From contig OZ024744.1 of NCBI GenBank assembly GCA_964016885.1, forward strand, positions 39,184,001-39,248,000: a stretch of DNA of 64,000 bases, read 5' to 3'. The notes under the pieces are model-generated. The model was given only the letters and a program-made list of their open reading frames with translations. It had not been told where the DNA came from and searched no databases. This document shows positions 1,837 to 51,945 of this stretch, piece by piece. The DNA is from Eledone cirrhosa (Eukaryota). Numbering within the stretch: the stretch's first letter is position 1; each line of letters starts with the position of its first letter. Made by a program: the position numbers and the translations under genes.

Positions 1837-2711
1837 ATAAATTGAAACAAAATGAAAACGAAATTTCATTTCTCACTCTTAGTATGGCACTTACTTAAAT
1901 GTAAGTATGCATGTATACGTACATACATATATGTATACAGACGTATAGTAGCATGCACATATATATATATATATACATATATACATACATATGCATACAG
2001 GTACACATACATATATGCACGTATCAGTTTAGCGGCGCTAACGTCGCTTTGTTCGTTTGTAAACAAACTGAACAGCCTGAATTTATGCCATACGGTGTTA
2101 AGGCAACCACGTCACCTTTTTGTTCAACACTGACACAGGAACGATGTACTAGTTTCAAGCTTGTTAGCTATCATCAGCACCGTTTACCCATCTGCCAGAT
2201 AGTTGAACGTTCGAAAGTATATACTTTCCTTATGAAAATTAACGGCTGAGCAGCCTAATTTGCATATTGAGTGAGTTAAATCGGTCAGGCATACCGAAAA
2301 CGATAAATTGAAACCAAATGAAAACGAAATTTCATTTCTCACTCTTAGTATGGCACTTACTTAAATGTAAGTATGCATGTATACGTACATACATATATGT
2401 ATACAGACGTATAGTAGCATGCACATATATATATATATATACATATATACATACATATGCATACAGGTACACATACATATATGCACGTATCAGTTTAGCG
2501 GCGCTAACGTCGCTTTGTTCGTAATAAATTCAGGCTGTTCAGTTTGTTTACAAACGAACAAAGCGACGTTAGCGCCGCTAAACTGATACGTGCATATATG
2601 TATGTGTACCTGTATGCATATGTATGTATATATGTATATATATATATATATGTGCATGCTACTATACGTCTGTATACATATATGTATGTACGTATACATG
2701 CATACTTACAT
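1835..2711 (-). mobile_element. 466-bp hammerhead-containing repeat (retrozyme-like), array 1: ~1.5 units plus an inverted arm
   Basis: Period 466 (identical ORF starts at 1852 and 2318). 2524-2711 is the reverse complement of part of the unit. Flanked by microsatellite on both sides. Confidence 0.85.
2140..2184 (-). ncRNA. Minimal type I hammerhead ribozyme
   Basis: Minus strand: AACGGUG-CUGAUGA-U-AGCU-AACA-AGCU-U-GAAAC-UA-GUA^CAUCGUU. 7-bp stem I, intact core, 4-bp stem II, palindromic ACUAGU stem III. Confidence 0.85.
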
Positions 2712-2781
2712 ATATGTATATATATATATGTATATATATATGTGTATATATATATGTATATATATATGTATATATATATAT

Positions 2782-3302: not shown

Positions 3303-3683
3303 GTATATATATGTATATATATATATATATGTATATATATGTATATATATATATATGTATATGTATATATATACACATATATATATACATATATATACAT
3401 ATATATATTTTCATATATATATATACACATATATATATATACACATATATATATTTTCATATATATATATACACATATATATATTTTCATATATATATAT
3501 ACACATATATATATATTCATATATATATAGATATATATATATACACATATATATATATACACATCTATATATATACACATATATACTCACACATATATAT
3601 ACTCACACATATATATACACATATATATACACATATATATTTACATATATACATATATATATATATAGACATATATACATATG
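2712..3683. repeat. (TA)n-derived microsatellite, switching from TATG-type to CATA-type near 3370
   Basis: Direct reading of the sequence. Confidence 0.95.
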
Positions 3684-4122
3684 TGAGTTACAAACGAAAC
3701 AAAATTTAATTTCGTTTCGTTATTTGTTTTTATCGTCTCCGTTGAACCGGTACGTACTCACACTATGCAAATTAGTCTGCCCACTACTAATTTTCATAGA
3801 AAAAGCATATAACGATATGTGCTTTTACGATTCTCCAGAAGGGCCGGTAGATAGGTAAATATTGCTGATGAGTTGTAACAACAACGAAACTAGTTCAATA
3901 TTCCTTGTCTGGCTTTCTGGAGAATAGAGGAAAGGTGTTTCCTCAAAAACCAGTATGACTCTAAAAACCGGTTTGTCTGTGTGTTTACATACAGAATAGC
4001 TGGATACTCACAGTAAAGTAACCAGTGAAAGACTTGGTACATCTACATATGTATACGTGTGTGTATTCATATGCATACTAGTATTTCAGTATACATATAT
4101 GGATGTACATTTTTAACTTAAT
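3684..4122 (+). mobile_element. Diverged relative of the 466-bp hammerhead repeat (single unit)
   Basis: Shares ordered blocks with the reverse complement of the 466-bp unit (ACTCAC..TATGCAAATTAG.CTGC, TAATTTTCATA..AAAG.ATATA, GG.AGAT.GGTAAA), followed by an HHR. Confidence 0.75.
3858..3902 (+). ncRNA. Minimal type I hammerhead ribozyme
   Basis: AAUAUUG-CUGAUGA-GUUGU-AACA-ACAAC-GAAAC-UA-GUU^CAAUAUU. Perfect 7-bp stem I, 5-bp stem II with G10.1-C11.1, palindromic stem III. Confidence 0.92.
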
Positions 4123-4384
4123 TGTATATATGTATATATATATATGTATATATATATATGTGTATATATATGTATATGTATATATATGTATGTATGTATA
4201 TATATATGTGTGTGTATATATATATATGTGTATGTATATATATATATATATGTGTGTATATATGTATATATATATATATAAATGTATATATATATATATA
4301 TATGTGTGTGTATATATATATATATGTGTGTATATATATATATATGTGTATATATATATATGTGTGTATATATATATATATGTG

Positions 4385-5486
4385 TCATTATCATCATCAT
4401 CAACGTTTAACGTCCGTGTTCCATGCTTGCATGGGTTTGGACGGGGGTAGTCCCACTTGAGGCAAGAGTGATTGTCTTGCTCGCATAGGACTGTCTGGCA
4501 GGTTTTCTACAGTTGGATGCCCTTCCTAACACCAACCACATTTACAGTGTGGGTCTGGGAGGTTTTTACCGTGTTGCCTACACGGCCACATTACAGCGTG
4601 GACTGTGTTTTTTTGTCGTGACACCTACACGATCTCATTTGTTTCGGCCTGGATGGCGCGGCACCAACATAACTTTACATAGAACGGGGTGGTGTGGATG
4701 GGGTGGGGGTGGTGGCGGGACGGGGTGTATTTTGTTAGAGATGCCTACTGGCAAGGCGGGTCTTCTCTGTTACTGAGTACCGCCAAAGGTCTAGGTCCAG
4801 TGACATTGTCTTGGAGAGGTGTAAGTGTGTGAGGTCGGAGTTTATCAGCTCATCCCAGGTTTTTCTAGGTCTGCCTATTCCGTGGCTACCGTCTATCTTT
4901 ATTGCCCTGCACTTTGTTATACAGCTATCGACTTTCATGCGCATCACGTGTCCATACCAACGCAGCCTTCTCTCGAGTAAACAACATCTGATCCCTCTTA
5001 TCTCTAATTTTTTCCTTAGTTCGTTTATGCTTTGCCGTTCACGTATATTACTGTTACACATCCAGCGGAGCATGCAAGCTTCGTTCCTCTCTAGTCTGCG
5101 TATATCCTCTGCACACAATGCCCAGGTCTCACTACCATGCAACATTGCTGTTCGTATGCAGGCATCGTACAACCTGTCTTTCATTTTTAGGGAGAACCCT
5201 TTAGCAGCTAATAGTGGTATAAGCTCTCTGAACTTTTTCCAACCAGTTCTGACTCTAGCTACAGTACTTTCAGAGCACCCTCCCACACTGCTGATTTTAT
5301 CGCCCAGGTAACGGAATCTGTCCACTATTTCTATAGAACCCTCTGCGCAATTGAAAGAGCTAGTATTTTGTGGGCACTTGCTGCTACTTATTGCACCAGA
5401 ACACCGGCCACATGCAAAATCTATGTTATTAGTTAGCTTACCTGTGATCCCACTACATCTTTTATGCACCCATACTTTGCATTTAG
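4385..5486 (-). mobile_element. RTE-clade LINE, family 1, 5'-truncated
   Basis: ORF 4735-5469 has FRYLG, MLHGSETW, RRLRWYGHVMR and GRPRKTW motifs. ~350-nt 3' UTR and (ATG)n tail. Confidence 0.93.
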
Positions 5487-5557
5487 GTGTATATATATAT
5501 ATTATATATATGTGTATATATATATATATATGTATATATATATTATATATATATATG

Positions 5558-6252: not shown

Positions 6253-6257
<5 letters not shown>

Positions 6258-6287
6258 AACAAAAGATGGTTAAAGGAGTTCCACGTA

Positions 6288-6351
6288 TTTTATTATGCGC
6301 CTTTCAAAAACAAATATCATGCAATAGTATTTGTGTTTTCATCAGATAAAA
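6288..6351 (-). ncRNA. Type I hammerhead ribozyme (variant copy in PLE1 left arm)
   Basis: UUUUAU-CUGAUGA-long stem II-GAAAG-GCGC-AUA^AUAAAA. A G.A mismatch in stem III relative to the 9.5-kb copy. Confidence 0.7.
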
Positions 6352-9300
6352 CAGGAGGACATGATATGAAGGCTAAAAAACACTTTTGGATAGTGCAGTT
6401 TTAAATCAACATATGAGAAGTAATTTTAGATTGATATGTGATATTGGGAAATATATTTTATTTAGAGTGGGGTGGGGTGGAAAGGATGAAAAAAAGAGGA
6501 GGAGATGAGAGTGAAGGTGGAGAGGGAGGAGTATAGTGAGGAAGCATGAGATAGGAGGAGAGATGGGTGATAGAGAGAGAGAGATAGTTTTTATAACTGA
6601 GAAAGATATATTGTTTTACATAGAGAGGTTGAAAACCGTTGGAAGATAATGTATAAATTAAAAGAATTTGAAAATTAACGAAGAGAAAAAGAGAAAAATA
6701 TGTGCGAAGAAAGAGAAGGAGTTAATATGTATTGAGAATAATGAGTTAGATGATAGGGAGAAAAGAATAATGAATTGAGGATGAATAATCTAGCGTCAAA
6801 AAAAATGTATATGTTTACGAAGGATTTTACAAGGTGATATAGAGTAAGAGTAATGAGTAAACAAGTATTATAGAATGTATAATAACCTTTGAAATAAGGT
6901 AGAAAGATGGTATATTTTTAAAAGAAGTGTATATATATGTGACTTTGAGAAAAAGATTCTAAATTGATAAAGAATTGAATATTAGCTGTATACTTTGTGA
7001 AATGTTTTATGGAATTTATGCAAGCAGATAGAAAAAATGTCAGTGCGTCTATTTATTATAGAATCTAGATTAGAGATAATGTTCAATTTTTCATTTAGAC
7101 AGAGATTGCAGATTTTAGATAGAGAACTGTTTAAGTATGGAGACGCAGAAGAAACCTTCCTCCAAAAGATGCTATATTTAATGTTTTTGTCTTTCAAGGA
7201 CCATATGAGTTCTGAGAGAGCCGTGTTGGTTCTTTTAAGTTTGTATTTAAAAGATGAATGATGGTTATAAAGACGAGCTTTAAAAGAGGTGGAAGTGGAG
7301 CCAAAATAGGTGAAGGAATTGGTGTCAGTTATAACTTATACATTCGTAAATTAAGTTTTTATCAAGACAATGGTTGTTGAGAGGACATTTATTTTTAATA
7401 GGGCAATTGCAATTTCAATTAGAGAGATTATTAATGAGTGACCTAGTGTTATCTATAGAAGGAAGTGTATTGGAGAAGTTGTTTGCGATAGGAATAATAG
7501 TTTCTTGATTTAGAGTGGGATTATGAACATTTAGCGAAGTTGTGTTTGACGTTGTATTTGGGTTTGTAGAAATTAGCCTAGGGTTTACAATGACGTCGGG
7601 AGTACTATTATTATGAAATTCAGTGTTGGAAGGAAGAGATTTAGTATTTAGTATTTTATTGTTGTGTTTAGAGATAATGTTGGAAATGTTGGAGGATGTA
7701 GAACAAGAAAATTTTATGGTGTGTTTGTTAAATATTTTACTATAGATATGTGAGGGAGGGAAGCATTTATTTAAGGCACTAAAGAATAATTTAGGAATAT
7801 TGTTATTAATAGAGATGGAGAAAGGAGCATTATACCAAAATATTTTTTTGTATCTAGGTCTTTTGTTAAAATTATTGGAATGATGATGATTAATTATTCT
7901 ACTGTAAGTTCTTCTAGAATTTGTTTCTTTACTATATTTGATTTTATCAGGATAGCCGGCTTTAGAAAGCGCGTTATTATAGTAATTGGCGTTAGCATCA
8001 AAGATGTTTTTATTAGAAGATAGGTTAGATATTCTTTTTCCAATATTACTAACTATAGCATTCTTGATATTAGTAGGATGGTTAGATTTAAAGTTAACAT
8101 AATTTAGGTTCTCATTGCTTTTATAGGCCAGTGTCAAGGTTAAGAGATACATCCAAGAAATTAGCTAGTTTGATACTGTTATCAAATTCAATTTTTAGGT
8201 TATGTTGGTTAAAGAGATTACGTATATTGTTCTTAATAATATTAAGGTTAACTATATTGCAATTTAAGATAGTAAAGAGTCCATCGTCCTTCTGCGTCTT
8301 CATACTTGAACAGTTCTCTATCTAAAATCTGCAATCTCTGTCTAAATGAAAAATTTAACATTATCTCTAATCTAGATTCTATAATAAATAGACGCACTGA
8401 CTTGTTTTCTATCTGCTTGCATAAATTCCATAAAACATTTCACAAAGTATACAGCTAATATTCAATTCTTTATCAATTTAGAATCTTTTTCTCAAAGGCA
8501 CATATATATACACTTCTTTTAAAAATATACCCATCTTTCTACCTTATTTCAAAGGTTATTATACATTCTATAATACTTGTTTACTTATTACTCTTACTCT
8601 ATATCACCTTGTAAAATCCTTCGTAAACATATACATTTTTTTTGACGCTAGATTATTCATCCTCAATTCATTATTCTTTTCTCCCTATCATCTAACTCAT
8701 TATTCTCAATACATATTAACATTTTCTTTATCTTCGCACATATTATCAAATCCTTCAATATACAAACCTTAACTTTACATTATTTTTCTCAAATCCTTCA
8801 ATATACAAACCTTAACTTTACATTATTTTTCTCTTCGTTAATTTTCAAATTTCTATAATACCTGTTTTACTCTTTCTACATCACCCATATTTATCACTTC
8901 CTTTTCTTCTCTTCTAATATCTAACCACTAATCTGTACCTTTTCTCACTCTTGCCTAACATAGAATCAATTATTACATAATACAACACATTCTTACTCTA
9001 TATCACCTTATAAAAATCCTTCGTAAACATATACAATTGTTTTTGACGTTAGAATATTCATCCGCAATTCATTATACTTTTCTCCCTATCATCTAACTCA
9101 TTATTCTCAATACATATTAACTCCTTCTCTTTCTTCGCACATATTTTTCTCTTTTTCTCTTCGTTAATTTTCAAATTCTTTTAATTTATACATTATCTTC
9201 CAACGGTTTTCAACCTCTCTATGTAAAACAATATATCTTTCTCAGTTATAATAACTATCTCTCTCTCTCTATCACCCATCTCTCCTGCTATCTCATCCTT

Positions 9301-9490
9301 CCACACTATACTCCTCCCTCTCCACCTTCACTCTCATCTCCTCCTCTTTTTTTCATCCTTTCCACCACACCCCCCTCTAAATAAAATATTTTTCCCAATA
9401 TCACACATCAATCTAAAACTACTTCTCATATGTTGATTTAAAACTGCACTATCCACAAGTGTTTTTTAGCCTTCATATCATGTCCTCCTG

Positions 9491-9557
9491 TTTTATCTGA
9501 TGAAAACACAAATATTATTGCATGATGATATTTGTTTTTGAAATGCGCATAATAAAA
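9491..9557 (+). ncRNA. Type I hammerhead ribozyme (PLE1 right arm)
   Basis: UUUUAU-CUGAUGA-(~15-bp stem II, loop GCAU)-GAAAU-GCGC-AUA^AUAAAA. Palindromic AUGCGCAU stem III. Confidence 0.85.
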
Positions 9558-9705
9558 TACATGGAACTCCTTTAACCATCTTTTGTTCTTATATATTATG
9601 TATACTCCAGTCCCACAAACTGTAGAGTGCTTCTTATACGATATCTGCATTGCTTTATTGTACTACAATAAAACTCACCTCCTACATTATATATATGTAT
9701 ATATA

Positions 9706-9741
<36 letters not shown>

Positions 9742-9804
9742 GTATATATATATATGTATATATATATTTATGTATATATATATGTGTATATATATATATG
9801 TATT

Positions 9805-9835
<31 letters not shown>

Positions 9836-9914
9836 GTGTATATATATATATGTGTATATATATATATGTGTATATATATATATGTATTTATATATATATA
9901 TATGTATATATATG

Positions 9915-10023
<109 letters not shown>

Positions 10024-10134
10024 GTGTATATATATATATATGTGTATATATATATATATGTGTATATAAATATATGTGTATATATATATATATATGCGTG
10101 TGTATATATATATGTGTATATATATATATATGTG

Positions 10135-10165
<31 letters not shown>

Positions 10166-10167
<2 letters not shown>

Positions 10168-15626: not shown

Positions 15627-16126
15627 GTATATATATGTATATGTATATATATGTATATGTATATATATGTATATATATGTATATGTATATATATGTATAT
15701 ATATATATATGTATATATATGTATATATATGTATATGTATATATATGTATATGTATATATATGTATATATATATATATGTATATATATGTATATGTATAT
15801 ATATGTATATATATGTATATATATATATATGTATATATATGTATATGTATATATATGTATATATATATATACGTATATATATATATGTATATATATGTAT
15901 ATGTATATATATATATATGTATATATATGTATATGTATATATATGTATATATATATATACGTATATATATATATGTATATATATGTATATGTATATATAT
16001 ATGTATGTATATGTATATATATATGTATATGTATGTATATATGTATATGTATGTATGTATATGTATATGTGTACGTATATGTATGTATATGTATATATAT
16101 GTATATATATATATATATGTATATAT
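14886..16126. repeat. (TA)n/(TATG)n microsatellite
   Basis: Direct reading of the sequence. Confidence 0.95.
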
Positions 16127-16367
16127 ATGTAAGTATGCATGTATACGTACATACATATATGTATACAGACGTACAGTAGCATGCACATATATATATATAT
16201 ATACATATATATATACATATGCATACAGGTACACATACATATATGCACGTATCAGTTTAGCGGCGCTAACGTCGCTTTGTTCGTTTGTAAACAAACTGAA
16301 CAGCCTGAATTTATGCCATACGGTGTTAAGGCAACCACGTCACCTTTTTGTTCAACACTGACACAGG

Positions 16368-16412
16368 AACGATGTACTAGTTTCAAGCTTGTTAGCTATC
16401 ATCAGCACCGTT
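16368..16412 (-). ncRNA. Minimal type I hammerhead ribozyme
   Basis: Identical to 2140-2184. Confidence 0.85.
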
Positions 16413-16833
16413 TACCCATCTGCCAGATAGTTGAACGTTCGAAAGTATATACTTTCCTTATGAAAATTAACGGCTGAGCAGCCTAATTTGCATATTGAGT
16501 GAGTTAAATCGGTCAGGCATACCGAAAATGATAAATTGAAACAAAATGAAAACGAAATTTCATTTTTCACTCTTAGTATGGCACTTACTTAAATGTAAGT
16601 ATGCATGTATACGTATATACATATATGTATACAGACGTACAGTAGCATGCACATATATATATATATATACATATATATATACATATGCATACAGGTACAC
16701 ATACATATATGCACGTATCAGTTTAGCGGCGCTAACGTCGCTTTGTTCGTTTGTAAACAAACTGAACAGCCTGAATTTATGCCATACGGTGTTAAGGCAA
16801 CCACGTCACCTTTTTGTTCAACACTGACACAGG

Positions 16834-16878
16834 AACGATGTACTAGTTTCAAGCTTGTTAGCTATCATCAGCACCGTT
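16834..16878 (-). ncRNA. Minimal type I hammerhead ribozyme
   Basis: Identical to 2140-2184. Confidence 0.85.
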
Positions 16879-17299
16879 TACCCATCTGCCAGATAGTTGA
16901 ACGTTCGAAAGTATATACTTTCCTTATGAAAATTAACGGCTGAGCAGCCTAATTTGCATATTGAGTGAGTTAAATCGGTCAGGCATACCGAAAATGATAA
17001 ATTGAAACAAAATGAAAACGAAATTTAATTTCTCACTCTTAGTATGGCACTTACTTAAATGTAAGTATGCATGTATACGTACATACATATATGTATACAG
17101 ACGTACAGTAGCATGCACATATATATATATATATACATATATATATACATATGCATACAGGTACACATACATATATGCACGTATCAGTTTAGCGGCGCTA
17201 ACGTCGCTTTGTTCGTTTGTAAACAAACTGAACAGCCTGAATTTATGCCATACGGTGTTAAGGCAACCACGTCACCTTTTTGTTCAACACTGACACAGG

Positions 17300-17344
17300 A
17301 ACGATGTACTAGTTTCAAGCTTGTTAGCTATCATCAGCACCGTT
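17300..17344 (-). ncRNA. Minimal type I hammerhead ribozyme
   Basis: Identical to 2140-2184. Confidence 0.85.
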
Positions 17345-17765
17345 TACCCATCTGCCAGATAGTTGAACGTTCGAAAGTATATACTTTCCTTATGAAAATT
17401 AACGGCTGAGCAGCCTAATTTGCATATTGAGTGAGTTAAATCGGTCAGGCATACCGAAAATGATAAATTGAAACAAAATGAAAACGAAATTTCATTTCTC
17501 ACTCTTAGTATGGCACTTACTTAAATGTAAGTATGCATGTATACGTACATACATATATGTATACAGACGTACAGTAGCATGCACATATATATATATATAT
17601 ACATATATATATACATATGCATACAGGTACACATACATATATGCACGTATCAGTTTAGCGGCGCTAACGTCGCTTTGTTCGTTTGTAAACAAACTGAACA
17701 GCCTGAATTTATGCCATACGGTGTTAAGGCAACCACGTCACCTTTTTGTTCAACACTGACACAGG

Positions 17766-17810
17766 AACGATGTACTAGTTTCAAGCTTGTTAGCTATCAT
17801 CAGCACCGTT
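17766..17810 (-). ncRNA. Minimal type I hammerhead ribozyme
   Basis: Identical to 2140-2184. Confidence 0.85.
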
Positions 17811-17956
17811 TACCCATCTGCCAGATAGTTGAACGTTCGAAAGTATATACTTTCCTTATGAAAGTGCCATACTAAGAGTGAGAAATGAAATTTCGTTTTC
17901 ATTTTGTTTCAATGTATATATATGTATATATATATATATATATGTATATGTATATG

Positions 17957-21407: not shown

Positions 21408-23692
21408 TAAAAACTACTGGACGACCTTAAAAATACCAAAGGAATTGTAGTAAAAGCGGACAAAACATCAAACCTGTACACTATGGATTGCACTACATAC
21501 AACAACTTCATTCGAAAAGAATTACATAAAAAATATAGAAAAACGAATGAAGTAACTCTTAAGCACATCAATGATGAGGCATGCGAAATAGTGAAAAATC
21601 TCGGAATTGAAGATAGGACAGGACCACTCTTACCGGCGGTACCCACCTTCAATCTTAAGGACCATAAGGTAAACTTTGATAATGACCCTAAAATTAGATT
21701 AATCTGCCCCTCTAAATCAGATATAGGTAAAATAAGCAAATATATCTTAGATAGAATCATCCCCCAAATTAAGGCTAAGGTTAACATTAAACTCTGGGGG
21801 AAGACCCAAGAAGCAATAAGATAGATTTATTCTTATTGCTAATGCTATTAAACCAAGTTTATCCAGTTTGATATCGATAAATATTACTCATCGATATCAC
21901 CTGAAACTTTGAATAGAGCCATTAAGTTTGCTAAGGATAACTCTGACCTTATAAACGATGAAATTAAGATTATATTAGAAGCTAGGAAAACTATAGTCAA
22001 ATTTGAGAACAGTTATTGGGTACGTAAAGATAGACCCTCTAACTTTGACATAACAATGGGCTCTAACGATTCGGCGGAAATAACTGATATTGTGGGGTTA
22101 TTTATCGCCTTTAGACTCCAGGAAAAATTCAGCAATCTCCACGGCGGAATATACCGCGACGATGTTCTCCTCCTAATTAAAAACCTAAATAACCAAAAAC
22201 TAGAAAAACTACGCAAAGATATAAGAAAACTACTACTCGAAATAGGACTAACTATAACATATGAATACAACCTTAAAGTAGTTAACTTCCTGGATGTCAC
22301 ACTCAATTTAAACTCTGGTTTGATTAAACCATTTCATAAATTGAATGAAAATCTCAAATACGTAAATGTTGGGTCTAACCACCCCATCTCTATAATTAAA
22401 TCTATCCCTAAAAATATTTCCCTTAGAATCTTGGGTCTATCTTCTAACATACAAGTATTTAAGGAACACACCGAGTACTACGATAACGCCCTTAGTAAAG
22501 CAGGCTACCTCAACAAAATAGAGTATATAGATGGGAACTATCAAAACACCAAAAATAAATCCCACATAGGTAGATATAATAACACAACACCAAACCACAC
22601 TTACTACCATAGTATGCACACCAGTAAACCAACAAACAAAACTAATAGAAAGCGATGCAAAGAGTACTTATGGTATAACCCCGAATACAATAGTTCCATT
22701 AGTACAAATTTACCAGTACTCTTCTTTAAAATAATTAAGAGACATTTTCCTACATCACACAAATACCACAAAATCCTAAACCCTACCACTATAAGACTGT
22801 CATACTCTACAGCGTTAAACCTTGAACAAAGATAAAAAAGATCAATACTAGAAGGTTAAACGAAAACACTAAGAACTTAAGTACAAAGAACACAAAAAAA
22901 AACAGTAGACAATACACTACAGAACATAAATAAACCACACTTAAGTTCGTCCTCAATACTACTCCAGAGAAAACCCAACGTACACAACTGTAACTGCACC
23001 TATCCTGACAACTGCCCCCTCGGCAATAACTGACTGGAAAAAAATATTATTTATAAGTGTACCATTAAATCCGGAGGCAACGAGTGGTATTACGTGGGAT
23101 CAACGGCAACATCGTTTAAATCTCGATTATATAGGCATTCTTACTCAATAAAACACCAGAGCCAAAGAAATGTAACAACTTTAGCAGAAAAAGCTTGGAC
23201 GCTCAGGGATAGCGATCAAAAGTTTACCCTAAAATGGGAGAAATTAGCTAAAACTCAAAGCTTTTCCAGGAGCCAAAATTTCTGCAAATTGTGTAATCTT
23301 GAGATTTATTACATAATCACACACAAGAAGAAATTACTGAATAACAGAATTGAACGAACATTATTCTGCCGTCACAGAACTAAAACCCTTTTTTCCCACT
23401 ACAAGCCGAATATTACATAAAAGAGGGACATCCCCCCAACTATATAAACCTCAATCTAGTTAGAAAAATATAAAAACAATCTCTTCTCAACATATATTAA
23501 TAACCTTAAATTACCACACTAATAATGGAAAGATATGCTGATGAGAATAGGTGCAAATATGCGATAATGAATGTGTCTAAAAACGTCCATAAGTATGTAT
23601 ATATATGTGAAAATGTATATAAATAAGTAAATATATATATATATGTTTGATGTGTATAGTTAGATGTAAGTGTATTCATGTATTAAAGTGCT

Positions 23693-46928: not shown

Positions 46929-46950
46929 TATATATATATATATATATATA

Positions 46951-49346
46951 TTGTTATACTTTGGGAGGGTCATGTTCCAGGCCTGGAACAATGACGTGCC
47001 GGCGTTGTATGGGCTTCGAAAAGACCATAAAACGGGCAGTGACCCTGTCGCGGGACCACCAACACGGCCAGTCTGTGGGGCTAACATTGCTAGTAACTAC
47101 AGACTGTCCTACTTCCTCTCCCTGATCATACGCCCCATCATTGAAATGTTCCCAGATGTATGTGACAGCACGGAGGACCTCCTCAGCAGAATCGGCGAGA
47201 GTAACCGATCTAGGGACCTAACAAACTGCATAATAAGCAGTATGGATGTTGTGTCCCTGTATCCATCTATTGACGTGGATTTTGCTGTGGAGAAATGCGT
47301 AGAAATGATCAGTGAGAGCAATGTTGAGTTCCGTGGGATTGATACCAGTGAGCTGGGACTCCTACTTAAACTTACCTATAGTAATAATTACCTAGACACA
47401 TATGACGTTAGCAACCTGTGCCCTACAAGACCAGCAAGAGGCAGACCACCTACCATTACCTCAATGGCCAAGAAAACCCACACAGATAGATGGAACGGGT
47501 GGACCAGAGCCATACGGACACCCGAAAACCACGATGAACTGAAGAAAATGATTGCACATGCGGTAGGGGCCAGCATAAAACTAACCCTTAAGGAACATAT
47601 GTTCAAATTTAATGGAAAAACATATGCCCAAGAGGAAGGAGCAGCCATTGGTTTTAGTATTGCAGGCGACATAGCTAACTTATTCATGGTATGGTGGGAA
47701 AGTAGACTTAAACTTAAACTTAAAGAACAATTAGAAGACCCCTTAACCCTGATAATGTACTCCCGCTACGTTGATGATAAAACATCGTAGTTAAGACACC
47801 CCGATTAGAGAACAGTCAGGAACTAGAGAAAAACACAATGGAAAGCATCCAGCAAATAGCTAACTCCATCCACCAGAGCATTAGAGTTACTATAGACTAC
47901 CCAAGTAAACACCCCAACCATCGATTACCTGTACTAGACACAGAGCTCTGGTTAGATACCATTAATAACAAAAAACAAATCCTCCATTCCCATTATGCCA
48001 AACCCATGACTTCCAAACATCTGATCCACCGAAACTCGGCCGTTTCGGACCATGCCAAAATCAACATACTGATTGCGGATTTGGTACGGGTGATGAGAAA
48101 CGTGTCCCGCATGTGCAACCCCGAAGAACTAGAGAGACACATACAACACTTCATCCACCGTATGCAGTTCTCTGGCTACAATCAGAGAGATAAAATCAGA
48201 GTGTATAGAGGAGCCAGAACCAAATGGGAAAAAATGGTAAATAATGACATAAATGGGACCTGCCCCTTGTATAGGAGCAAATTTTGGAATAGAATAGAAA
48301 GAACTAGGAACAAGGCTAATAGAATAAACTCATGGTATGATAGCAATAAATACCAGAGTGTAATGTTCATCAATACAACCCCTAGAGGTGAATTAGCTTA
48401 CAAATTTAGAAGGGACCTAGATAAACATAAACTCAATATTAAGATAGTAGAAAGACCAGGTACCTCCGTAAAAACACTTATTAGCAAGACATACCCTTTT
48501 CAAAGACCCTCATGTATAGATAAGAAATGTATAACCTGTAAAATAAGCCCCCATATTAACTGTAAAACTAGAAATGTAGTGTATAGCATAAGATGTACTG
48601 AAGGACAATGTAGAGATAAAAATATAGTGTACATAGGTGAGACAGCTCGTAGTGTAGGGGAACGGATAAATGAACACTGGCGAGACATTCATGATAGTAA
48701 AGAATCATCTGTACTCTACCAACATGCTAAAATAGAACACAAGGGTAAATTAGAGAACATAGAAATAAAAATAGAATCTACACACAGAAAAGACGCAATG
48801 TTTAGACAAATCACAGAGGCAATAAGCATAAAAGAATTACAACCAAAATTAAATAGAAAATATGAGTGGAACAGCAACATAACAACTTACAATTAAGGAC
48901 AAAATGAAAACACACACACACATAGAACAAACAACCAACCAGTAACATGTAAATAAACAAATAAATAAATGAACATAAACACACACAGACACCCGGATGT
49001 GGCGCATGCGCAGACTGAGCACACAACACACATGCAGAAACAAAATGGCGTAGGACAGAACAAAGGAGAGGCACAAAAACAAAGAAAGGAATCCCCAGTC
49101 ACTGAAGAGGTCACAGAGTGTGTGACGAAAGAACTATGACAATATATAAACAACTATCTGGTTGTGGAACCAACCAACCAACCAGAAATTTATAAATTTA
49201 TTATAAATTTATTATAATAAATTGAAGTGAAAGCAACTGGTGCGTGTGTTTCTTATTGGCAACATGACCCTCCCAAAGTATAACAATATCGGTTTCAACA
49301 CACGATTTCAGATAAAGAATCTTGCTAAACAAATTCAGAAACGAAA
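46951..49346 (+). mobile_element. Penelope-like element 3 (RT + Cys-rich linker + GIY-YIG), 5'-truncated, one frameshift near 47780
   Basis: LYGLRKDHK..RPV, SMDVVSLYPSI, QEEGAAIG, RYVDD and LPVLD motifs; NVVY..C...YIGETARS..ER..EH. 46951-46976 is an inverted copy of 49261-49286. Confidence 0.93.
49098..49140 (+). ncRNA. Minimal type I hammerhead ribozyme in the PLE3 pseudo-LTR
   Basis: GUCA-CUGAAGA-G-GUCACA-GAGUG-UGUGAC-GAAAG-AA-CUA^UGAC. Confidence 0.7.
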
Positions 49347-50261: not shown

Positions 50262-50304
<43 letters not shown>

Positions 50305-50307
<3 letters not shown>

Positions 50308-50715
50308 TTATACTTTGGGAGGGTCATGCTGCCAATAAAAACACACGCACCTGTTGGTTTTCACTTCAATTTATTATAATTTTCTGGTTGGTTGGTTGGT
50401 TGGTTCGATAACCGGATGGTTGTTTATATATTGTCAAAGCTCTACACATGTGTAGGACAGAACAAAGGAGAGACACAAATTAAAAACCCAGTTACTGAGG
50501 ATGTCACAGAATGTGTGACAAAAGAGCTTTGACAATATATCAATAACCATCCAGTTATCAAACCAACCAACCAACTGGAAATTTAAATAAATTGAAGTGA
50601 AAACCAACAGGTGCATGTGTTTTTATTGGCAGTATGACCCTCCCAAAGTATAACAATATCTGTTTCAACACACGTTTTCAGTTAAGAATCTTGCAAAACA
50701 AATTAAAAAACGAAA
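50305..50715 (+). mobile_element. Non-coding derivative of the PLE3 family: inverted pLTR arm + direct pLTR + tail
   Basis: 50305-50440 is the reverse complement of the pLTR 3' part. 50450-50715 aligns to 49049-49346. Degenerate HHR at 50491-50533 with G12 changed to A. Confidence 0.85.
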
Positions 50716-51945
50716 TATATATATATATATATATTTATGTTTGTGCATATATATATAGAGAGAGAGAGATGCTGTGCTGAATAGGACCCGTCCCACCCTT
50801 ACAAGCAGGGAAAAGCGGACATATGATGATGATGATGATTATATATATGTGTGTGTGTGTGTTTATGTATATGCATGTATGTATGTATACACACACACAC
50901 ACACACAAATATACACACATATACTTTCCCAAGAAATATCTAATATGGATAATCAGAGCTTAACTTTTTATGACACTTCACTTGAGTAGTATTAGTTTTA
51001 ATGTTCTTTCATAGTCTCTCCAATGTCTTCTTGCACTTCAGAATTGTGCAATACTAACCTTTTTTTAATCTAAATGTCATGTTAAGTATCACATAACCTT
51101 ATTAATGATGATTCGCTTTTTGTTTTTGTTTTTTTTAACGACCTAACGAAGGAGACATTTTCCATGTTGCTTGATCTTTTAGAAGAAAAAAAACATTTAG
51201 CATCCAATACTTTCTTAATTATACCCTACCCTTTTAAAGATAGGAAGAACTTGATTTGCATTAGTTGACATAGTCCTCGGCAAACTGAACTAAAATTCAA
51301 TTTGATGGTCATGGCTAAATTCTTTCTCAATTATAGCCTAACCTTTTAAAAACAGGAAAGACTCTACTCACTTTTGATGAAGTCATTCTAGATACACTCG
51401 CTGAATTTAACAAAGAAAAACCAAAAATGTTATGGCTATGCCTAAATTCTTTATCAATTATGGTCTACCCTTTAAAAAAATAGGCTGGACTTGATGTGCA
51501 ATGGATGTCCTAGTTTTTTATGCCTGTATTTGTATTGAAATGCACCGAATTTCATTTAATTGATGAAGAAGTTTGGAGGGTTTACTAAAATTATTAATAA
51601 TTTCATTACTAAGATAGTAACTTAACATATTGTTCTTATTTGATGTTGTTGTGGATGTTGGTGTTGTTACTATTGTGTAGTCTCCAAGTCTTCCTTGATA
51701 GATCAGATCTGTAATCAAAAGTATTCTAACAATGACCTTCCAGTCTTTTTTCTTCCTCCAAATATCATGACTTTCATCATCACCGTAATCATTTAATGTC
51801 CATGTTCCACATTTGCATGGGTTAGATGGGTTGTCACCTTATGAGACAAGTCAGGCCTGGAAACCACATGTTCATATAGATCTGTATTTTGGTTTGGTTT
51901 CTACAACTGGATGCCTTTCCTAATACCAACCATATTATAGGTGAA

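What the first reader, a model, noticed from the sequence alone, without database searches (positions are those of the whole stretch)
3684..4122. Diverged sister family keeps the hammerhead fold through compensatory changes
Seen: stem I is AAUAUUG/CAAUAUU here versus AACGGUG/CAUCGUU in the 466-bp unit. Stem II is GUUGU/ACAAC versus (U)AGCU/AGCU(U). The CUGAUGA and GAAAC core, the AACA loop, the ACUAGU palindrome and the 45-nt length are identical. Inference: covariation like this indicates selection on ribozyme structure, so this is an old, diversifying lineage rather than a chance match.
Basis: partly seen in the sequence, partly recalled or inferred. Interest (0 to 1): 0.85.

Follow-up and report, generated by a model that had tools for sequence, protein, structure and literature searches.

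The report
Young retrozyme families riding Penelope machinery
This 440-base piece is one young copy of a very abundant small jumping element that carries a hammerhead self-cutting RNA motif whose stems are kept by paired changes between sister families, and its insertions bear the same end marks as a neighbouring Penelope-type retrotransposon, which likely copies it from an RNA circle; the class is known, these families appear undescribed.

Summary
Family B (3683-4125) and the 466-bp family A share a type I hammerhead: 6 stem pairs change on both sides, 11-12 of 12 pairs are kept, and 20 of 21 non-stem bases are identical. The flanks align too (about 60% overall). The lineage is old, but this copy is young (about 99% to its family), so covariation lies between families, not among copies. 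A-B heterodimers are predicted to fail (4 of 12 swapped stem I pairs mismatch). The element fits non-LTR retrozymes, a known class. Added here: insertions sit in (TA)n as head-to-head arms, one arm with a 59-69-nt tail (26 of 27 B/C cases), as in a young Penelope-like element in this window. All units of one insertion share private variants, and 5' ends do not gather at the cleavage site. This favours rolling-circle copying of an RNA circle by Penelope enzymes. Cleavage, expression, circles and the partner are untested.

The parts
3683..4125 (+). Family B retrozyme-like element, one-armed solo copy lacking the first ~21 nt of the 466-nt unit; 3' end at the first fixed end site, inside a (TA)n tract
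   Evidence: 4 substitutions/indels against a tandem unit from L004
3693..3733 (+). Hairpin of the 'tail' segment and the second fixed 3' end site (3733) used by the other arm of two-armed insertions
   Evidence: loose end with TA repeat behind 3733 in run X1
3853..3905 (+). Extended type I hammerhead: GG/CC extension, 3x1 internal loop, stem I 3859-3864/3896-3901, CUGAUGA 3865-3871, stem II 3872-3885, GAAAC 3886-3890
   Evidence: Rfam Hammerhead_HH9 3847-3918, 38.6 bits, E 1.2e-07, below its gathering score 52
3889..3894 (+). ACUAGU palindrome, predicted 6-bp helix III of a double hammerhead
   Evidence: sequence; ACAUGU in 92 of the first 100 listed E copies, ACUAGU in 0
3893..3896 (+). GUU cleavage triplet; predicted cut between 3895 and 3896
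   Evidence: 6,082 GUU against 1,680 GUA/GUC/GUG copies in the B/C clade
1837..2718 (.). Family A two-armed insertion: minus arm 1837-2522 ending with the tail, plus arm 2524-2718 ending without it; hammerhead 2140-2184 (-), GUA
16124..17917 (.). Family A tandem array (3.7 x 466 bp, four hammerheads, minus arm) with a short inverted arm 17847-17917 carrying the tail
46950..49346 (+). 5'-truncated Penelope-like element (RT, CX4CXXC linker, GIY-YIG; different, minimal-type hammerhead at 49102) with a short inverted arm and a 60-nt tail at one end only; candidate source of enzymes
50304..50716 (.). Short two-armed insertion of a relative of the same Penelope-like family, tail on one arm only

Best explanation
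The stretch is a young solo copy of a non-coding 466-nt element with a structurally conserved type I hammerhead motif, one of five sister families with over 35,000 motifs in this genome, and it likely spreads as a retrozyme: tandem transcripts would self-cleave as double hammerheads, the monomer would be closed into a circle, and a Penelope-type reverse transcriptase and endonuclease would likely copy that circle round and round into (TA)n tracts. Shown: fold, covariation between families, copy number, absence of a long reading frame in the unit, two fixed 3' ends, one-tail-per-insertion rule, shared private variants within an insertion, no pile-up of 5' ends at the cleavage site. Inferred: cleavage, dimer mode, circle, identity of the partner. 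The single copy at 3683-4125 has one ribozyme only and is likely a dead end.
For: Fold: 95.1% of 204 cells paired, 8 of 17 pairs with two-sided changes, covariation score 0.468 against 0.193 +/- 0.028 (0 of 500 shuffles) and at most 0.136 when slid (12 rows, about four independent lineages). Copy number: 19,187 + 16,263 matches to two disjoint patterns, reversed controls 0. Whole monomers are highly self-paired as circles (z -6.7, -8.9, -5.0 against 30 shuffles) with two-sided changes in 20 of 86 consensus pairs. Ends: one arm with tail and one without in 20 of 21 B/C insertions and 6 of 6 more, 5 of 5 A, 3 D pairs readable; the same rule in 6 of 6 head-to-head pairs of the young Penelope-like family, read by eye, tail 60 nt against 59 (A) and 69 (B). 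This is the published Penelope signature (PMC3846280; PMC8557442). Template: units differ by 0.68 bases between arms of one insertion, 2.0 within arms, 14.2 between loci (94 units, 11 loci); 18 of 18 units identical across both arms of L164. 5' junctions at the cleavage site 4, at a control site 10 nt on 21. The candidate partner family is young (150 scored hits at 96-100% aa identity, one 1167-aa frame) and resembles RT/GIY-YIG clusters.
Against: No cleavage assay, no transcript, no circle was seen. GUU is the majority triplet in B/C and E and is recalled (not from a call) as a slow site; family A has a U.U at the base of stem II; 8 of 9 tested Xenopus retrozyme dimers gave no cleavage product in vitro (10.64898/2026.07.22.740005). 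Uncut read-through transcripts of a homogeneous array would also span the cleavage site. Long arrays L165 and L171 show recurring variant patterns, so part of the unit number comes from later local duplication. No convincing sequence likeness between the units and three Penelope 3' ends of the window or one further hammerhead-bearing repeat (best 2 of 200 shuffles among 8 tests). A second Penelope-like family also uses (TA)n and a one-sided tail (about 98 nt), so the partner is not fixed. Rfam gathering thresholds were not reached. 30 of the loci were best hits to this copy, which favours young full-length insertions.
Confidence: 0.8

Rival explanations
1. The units are simply the terminal repeats (pLTRs) of an autonomous Penelope-like element not yet found, and the copies are its 5'-truncated stumps.
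For: Insertion anatomy is that of Penelope elements; Xenopus retrozymes are related to pLTRs; an earlier AI note on another genome reached this reading (e1-7908855).
Against: The repeat unit closes on itself at 418-540 nt with no long frame and forms arrays of up to 31 units; in the loci read the arms start inside the unit against TA repeats, the other arm or unrelated DNA; the one Penelope frame abutting an A copy (L077) is cut before its endonuclease; the ribozyme is the canonical form, unlike the one in the window's Penelope element.
Confidence: 0.1
2. The ribozyme in B/C is now weak or idle (GUU), and the family spreads from uncut read-through transcripts of genomic arrays; the compensatory changes are relics of earlier selection.
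For: GUU in 6,082 of 7,762 B/C copies; no 5' ends at the cleavage site; most tested Xenopus dimers did not cleave.
Against: B and C, 97% identical, differ by a two-sided change in stem II, so selection on the fold is recent; N17 varies among A, C and U and is G in only 2 of the first 100 non-U copies listed; GUU is listed among cleavable sites (PMC3138052 passage); units of both arms share private variants.
Confidence: 0.15
3. Satellite-like DNA that spread by recombination and gene conversion, with the hammerhead a passenger.
For: Higher-order variant patterns in L165 and L171.
Against: Dispersed short insertions with two fixed 3' ends, variable 5' ends and a one-tail rule are not made by unequal crossing-over; it explains array growth only.
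Confidence: 0.03
4. The element is moved by the abundant RTE-type LINEs of this window rather than by Penelope enzymes.
For: Such LINE fragments are the commonest repeats of the window and also lie in TA tracts.
Against: Those LINEs end in CAT repeats, which the elements lack; head-to-head arms with a one-sided tail are the Penelope pattern.
Confidence: 0.03

Closest known systems
Metazoan non-LTR retrozymes (coral, mussel, axolotl; PMC7229834; vertebrate survey 10.64898/2026.07.22.740005)
   Same: Non-coding tandem units with a canonical type I hammerhead, low GC, thousands of copies in several families, highly self-paired monomer, co-occurrence with Penelope elements.
   Different: Unit 418-540 nt, at or above the 150-450 bp given in PMC7229834; GUU the majority triplet in two lineages; strict (TA)n targeting; inverted arms with a one-sided tail, a word search for 'inverted' giving 0 hits in PMC7229834 and no mention in parts 1-3 of the preprint; RNA not shown here.
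Amphibian satellite 2 and axolotl HHR_Amex1/Amex2 hammerheads (PMC7229834 passages)
   Same: Weak helix III with palindromic loop needing a dimer; U.U at the base of helix II as in families A and D.
   Different: No sequence likeness tested; B/C have a G-C there.
Endonuclease-bearing Penelope-like elements with CX2-5CxxC linker (Neptune/Nematis type; PMC8557442, PMC3846280)
   Same: Partial tandems, head-to-head inverted 5'-truncated arm, tail on one end, microsatellite targets, hammerhead near the 3' end.
   Different: No reading frame; tail 59-69 nt rather than 30-40; canonical rather than minimal hammerhead; no shown homology to a pLTR of this genome.
Rfam Hammerhead_HH9 (RF02275, clan CL00010)
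   Same: Full-model match at 3847-3918, E 1.2e-07.
   Different: 38.6 bits, under the gathering score of 52; multicopy mobile element rather than a conserved single locus (the last point recalled).

Membership tests
Canonical type I hammerhead ribozyme | CUGANGA and GAAA core in a three-way junction, open helix I | tested here: met
Canonical type I hammerhead ribozyme | Helix I of 6 bp, helix II of about 4 bp, helix III of 1-2 bp with palindromic 2-4 nt loop (PMC4209133) | tested here: met
   6, 4-5 and 2 bp with UA or AU loop
Canonical type I hammerhead ribozyme | NUH cleavage triplet | tested here: met
   GUU, GUC, GUA; GUU listed as cleavable in PMC3138052
Canonical type I hammerhead ribozyme | Loop 1-loop 2 tertiary contact | tested here: inconclusive
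   GGU..A / UCC and loop AANA/G positions are near invariant in 12 rows; contact itself not testable
Canonical type I hammerhead ribozyme | Self-cleavage | not testable with these tools
   needs an assay
Non-LTR retrozyme | Non-coding tandem units each with a type I hammerhead, dispersed at high copy | tested here: met
   the copy at 3683-4125 itself is a solo monomer
Non-LTR retrozyme | Highly self-paired monomer | tested here: met
Non-LTR retrozyme | Expressed as linear and circular monomer RNA | not testable with these tools
   no run on record as RNA was listed
Non-autonomous Penelope-like element | Tandem plus head-to-head inverted arm, tail at one end, variable 5' truncation | tested here: met
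   26 of 27 B/C and 5 of 5 A two-armed insertions
Non-autonomous Penelope-like element | Sequence homology to the pLTR of an autonomous family | tested here: inconclusive
   none convincing against four candidates; most Penelope families of the genome not examined
Autonomous Penelope-like element | RT plus GIY-YIG reading frame within the element | tested here: not met
   no such frame in the unit

The most novel reading that the evidence does not exclude
These families are a genomic record of rolling-circle reverse transcription: one RNA circle is copied many times into both arms of a Penelope-type insertion. The ribozyme has been tuned down to GUU in two lineages to keep circles and multimers intact, and divergence of stem I acts as a recognition code that stops sister families from cutting each other despite a shared palindrome.
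Probability: 0.3. Interest if true: 0.7.

Novelty: new member of a known kind. Interest (0 to 1): 0.45.

Why it matters
Which enzyme moves animal retrozymes is still argued from co-occurrence and pLTR likeness (PMC7229834; 10.64898/2026.07.22.740005). Here young retrozyme families and a young Penelope-like family with a long open frame share target, arm geometry and tail length in one genome, which makes a trans-mobilisation and circle-template test straightforward. Natural GUU hammerheads at thousands of copies offer a test of whether slow cleavage is selected.

Tried and rejected
Rfam at gathering thresholds: 0 matches in the window; the miRNA hits are TA-repeat noise. No RNA holder listed among 6 runs; contigs of X4 and X5 join the unit's end to its start, but the runs' kind is unknown and tandem DNA gives the same joint, so this says nothing on circles or expression; shares in organisms B-D were not interpreted. 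A pattern with a wrong spacer length gave 1 hit and was redone. A DNA search for hammerhead repeat F (L049) found nothing, not even itself, so it is uninformative. Pfam gave no hit on the 1167-aa frame and one weak RVT_1 hit among 5 window frames; PDB gave only a GIY-YIG endonuclease at E 0.51. L084 was dropped from the whole-unit alignment because its interval is not a clean unit. L033 was left out of the arm count because both ends abut LINE CAT tails; L070, L074, L095/096, L167, L171, L172, L178, L179 were left out because only one end was readable. L124's two Penelope ends are tail-to-tail and were not counted. The loci were counted, not inspected; one control site only, with TA microhomology in its favour. 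R-scape was not available. A paper search for U17/C17 rates found 0 papers. A-B heterodimer cleavage rejected on pairing grounds. Earlier findings: none for this genome or sequence.

Full report
Observation. The two 45-nt motifs are where and as described: 3858-3902 (+), here family B, and 2140-2184 (-), family A, with four more A copies in the 466-bp array. Fourteen of 24 stem bases differ, six pairs change on both sides, and B keeps 12 of 12 pairs and A 11 of 12. Random placement of 14 substitutions keeps as many pairs in 91 to 1331 of 400,000 trials. The flanks are homologous on both sides (0 of 1000 shuffles each), and whole monomers are about 60% identical. Rfam gives no match at gathering level but Hammerhead_HH9 at 3847-3918 with E 1.2e-07.

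The family in the genome. The window lies in a 3.0-Gb animal assembly; its repeats recall octopus genomes, a guess from memory that I did not test. Two disjoint patterns give 19,187 and 16,263 matches, with 0 for the reversed controls. Five families emerge: A, B, C (97% like B, one two-sided change in stem II), D (CUGACGA) and E (304 matches to a tight pattern). Tandem units of A, B and C are 466 nt, with variants of 418-540 nt. Median copy-to-copy identity round the ribozyme is 1.00 for 33 B copies (26 of them best hits, so biased up), 0.89 for 13 D and 0.80 for 10 E. The lineage has thus amplified in waves, and B is a recent one. On 12 representatives the fold holds in 95.1% of 204 cells, with two-sided changes at 8 of 17 pairs and a covariation score above all 500 shuffles and all slid controls. 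The rows stand for about four independent lineages, so this is a count, not a probability. Within B there is no covariation: 51 of 55 motifs in 30 partly overlapping loci are identical.

Ribozyme anatomy. Stem I is 6 bp, then a 3x1 internal loop and a GG/CC extension; stem II is 4-5 bp; helix III is 2 bp closed by two bases. This is the canonical metazoan type I form, known to need a second copy to cleave well, and genomes with families full of compensatory changes are already reported (PMC4209133, passages; PMC7229834, passages and section 14; PMC6155905, passages). The palindrome itself covaries: ACAUGU in 92 of the first 100 E copies listed, ACUAGU in none, one event. In a double hammerhead the stem I strands are swapped as well as helix III (my inference from the topology). 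PMC1636495 (abstract and passages) names GUC, GUA and AUA in natural hammerheads and holds no 'GUU'; PMC3138052 (passages) lists GUU as cleavable. That GUU is slow is recalled, and a search for rates found nothing.

Insertion anatomy. 3' ends fall at two fixed sites, 59 nt apart in A and 69 in B, homologous between families and followed by (TA)n; 5' ends are scattered. Many insertions have two head-to-head arms, and one arm ends with the extra tail while the other does not: 20 of 21 B/C insertions with both ends readable, 6 of 6, 5 of 5 for A, and three readable D pairs. This is the published Penelope pattern (PMC3846280, passages; PMC8557442, passages and section 6). The window's own Penelope-like element (46950-49346) shows it with a 60-nt tail; 6 of 6 head-to-head pairs follow the rule, read by eye. 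That family is young (150 scored hits at 96-100%), has one 1167-aa frame and resembles RT/GIY-YIG clusters at 0.96-0.97, though Pfam did not hit it. A second Penelope-like family has a tail of about 98 nt. No convincing sequence likeness links the units to these 3' ends, so the partner is a candidate only.

Template. A cut linear monomer would leave 5' ends at the cleavage site; there are 4 such junctions against 21 at one control site, and every counted motif spans the site. Among 94 units from 11 B/C arrays that I picked from listed hits, units differ by 0.68 bases between arms of one insertion, 2.0 within arms and 14.2 between loci; in L164 all 18 units of both arms are identical and carry private variants. 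This fits repeated copying of one circular template. It does not exclude uncut transcripts of a homogeneous array, and L165 and L171 show later local duplication. Monomers fold far better than shuffles as circles with two-sided changes outside the ribozyme. No RNA evidence was obtainable.

Mechanism, with status. Shown: structure conservation, abundance, end rule, unit homogeneity. Inferred: transcription of arrays, dimer cleavage, ligation to a circle, priming at TA-like sites by a Penelope endonuclease nick, rolling copy of both arms. The solo copy at 3683-4125 likely cannot yield a monomer. Confidence 0.8.

Comparison and novelty. It works like, and meets the sequence-level tests for, a non-LTR retrozyme. 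PMC7229834 proposes circles as templates and Penelope elements as a strong candidate; the 2026 preprint (parts 1-3 of 5 read; supplements not seen) adds pLTR kinship in Xenopus, and found cleavage in 1 of 9 tested dimers. Searches listed no paper describing these families, or the one-tail rule for retrozymes; the library lacks most subscription journals, and repeat databases were not searchable. Earlier AI notes on other genomes report the same Penelope end marks on other small elements, which lowers the surprise. Interest 0.45.

Noticed in passing
L077 (minus strand, about 280-1500): A Penelope RT fragment, cut before its endonuclease, joins directly to the 5' end of an A array with no TA tract between; a template switch or a deletion. 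One case.
   Followed up: partly
window 6255-10167: Two-armed insertion of a second Penelope-like family with its own hammerhead-like motif (6345 minus, 9497 plus) and a one-sided tail of about 98 nt.
   Followed up: partly
window 21411-23600: Third Penelope-like fragment (RT and C-terminal GIY-YIG-like frame) with a CUGAUGA at 23538 that lacks a clear downstream core.
   Followed up: no
L049:2520-3000, L176: Hammerhead repeat F with the same architecture (U.U base pair, AAUA loop) but an ACGCGU palindrome, as an inverted pair; parent unknown.
   Followed up: partly
L069, L072, L089: Several family E copies carry an inserted SINE-like segment downstream of the ribozyme (SINE label from recall).
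   Followed up: no
L167: The two arms of one B insertion differ at N17 (GUC in three units, GUG in two).
   Followed up: no
L004, L006, L012, L016, L028, L040, L065, L072: Many further, unrelated hammerhead-like motifs lie in the flanks, so this genome holds many more ribozyme-bearing repeat families.
   Followed up: no
window 4380-5487 and many other places: Abundant RTE-type LINE fragments ending in CAT repeats, nested in the same TA tracts (RTE label from recall).
   Followed up: no
window units A, B, C: A and B/C are only about 60% identical with different indels, yet both have a 466-nt unit; D is 418-428 and A variants 484-540, so this may be chance.
   Followed up: partly
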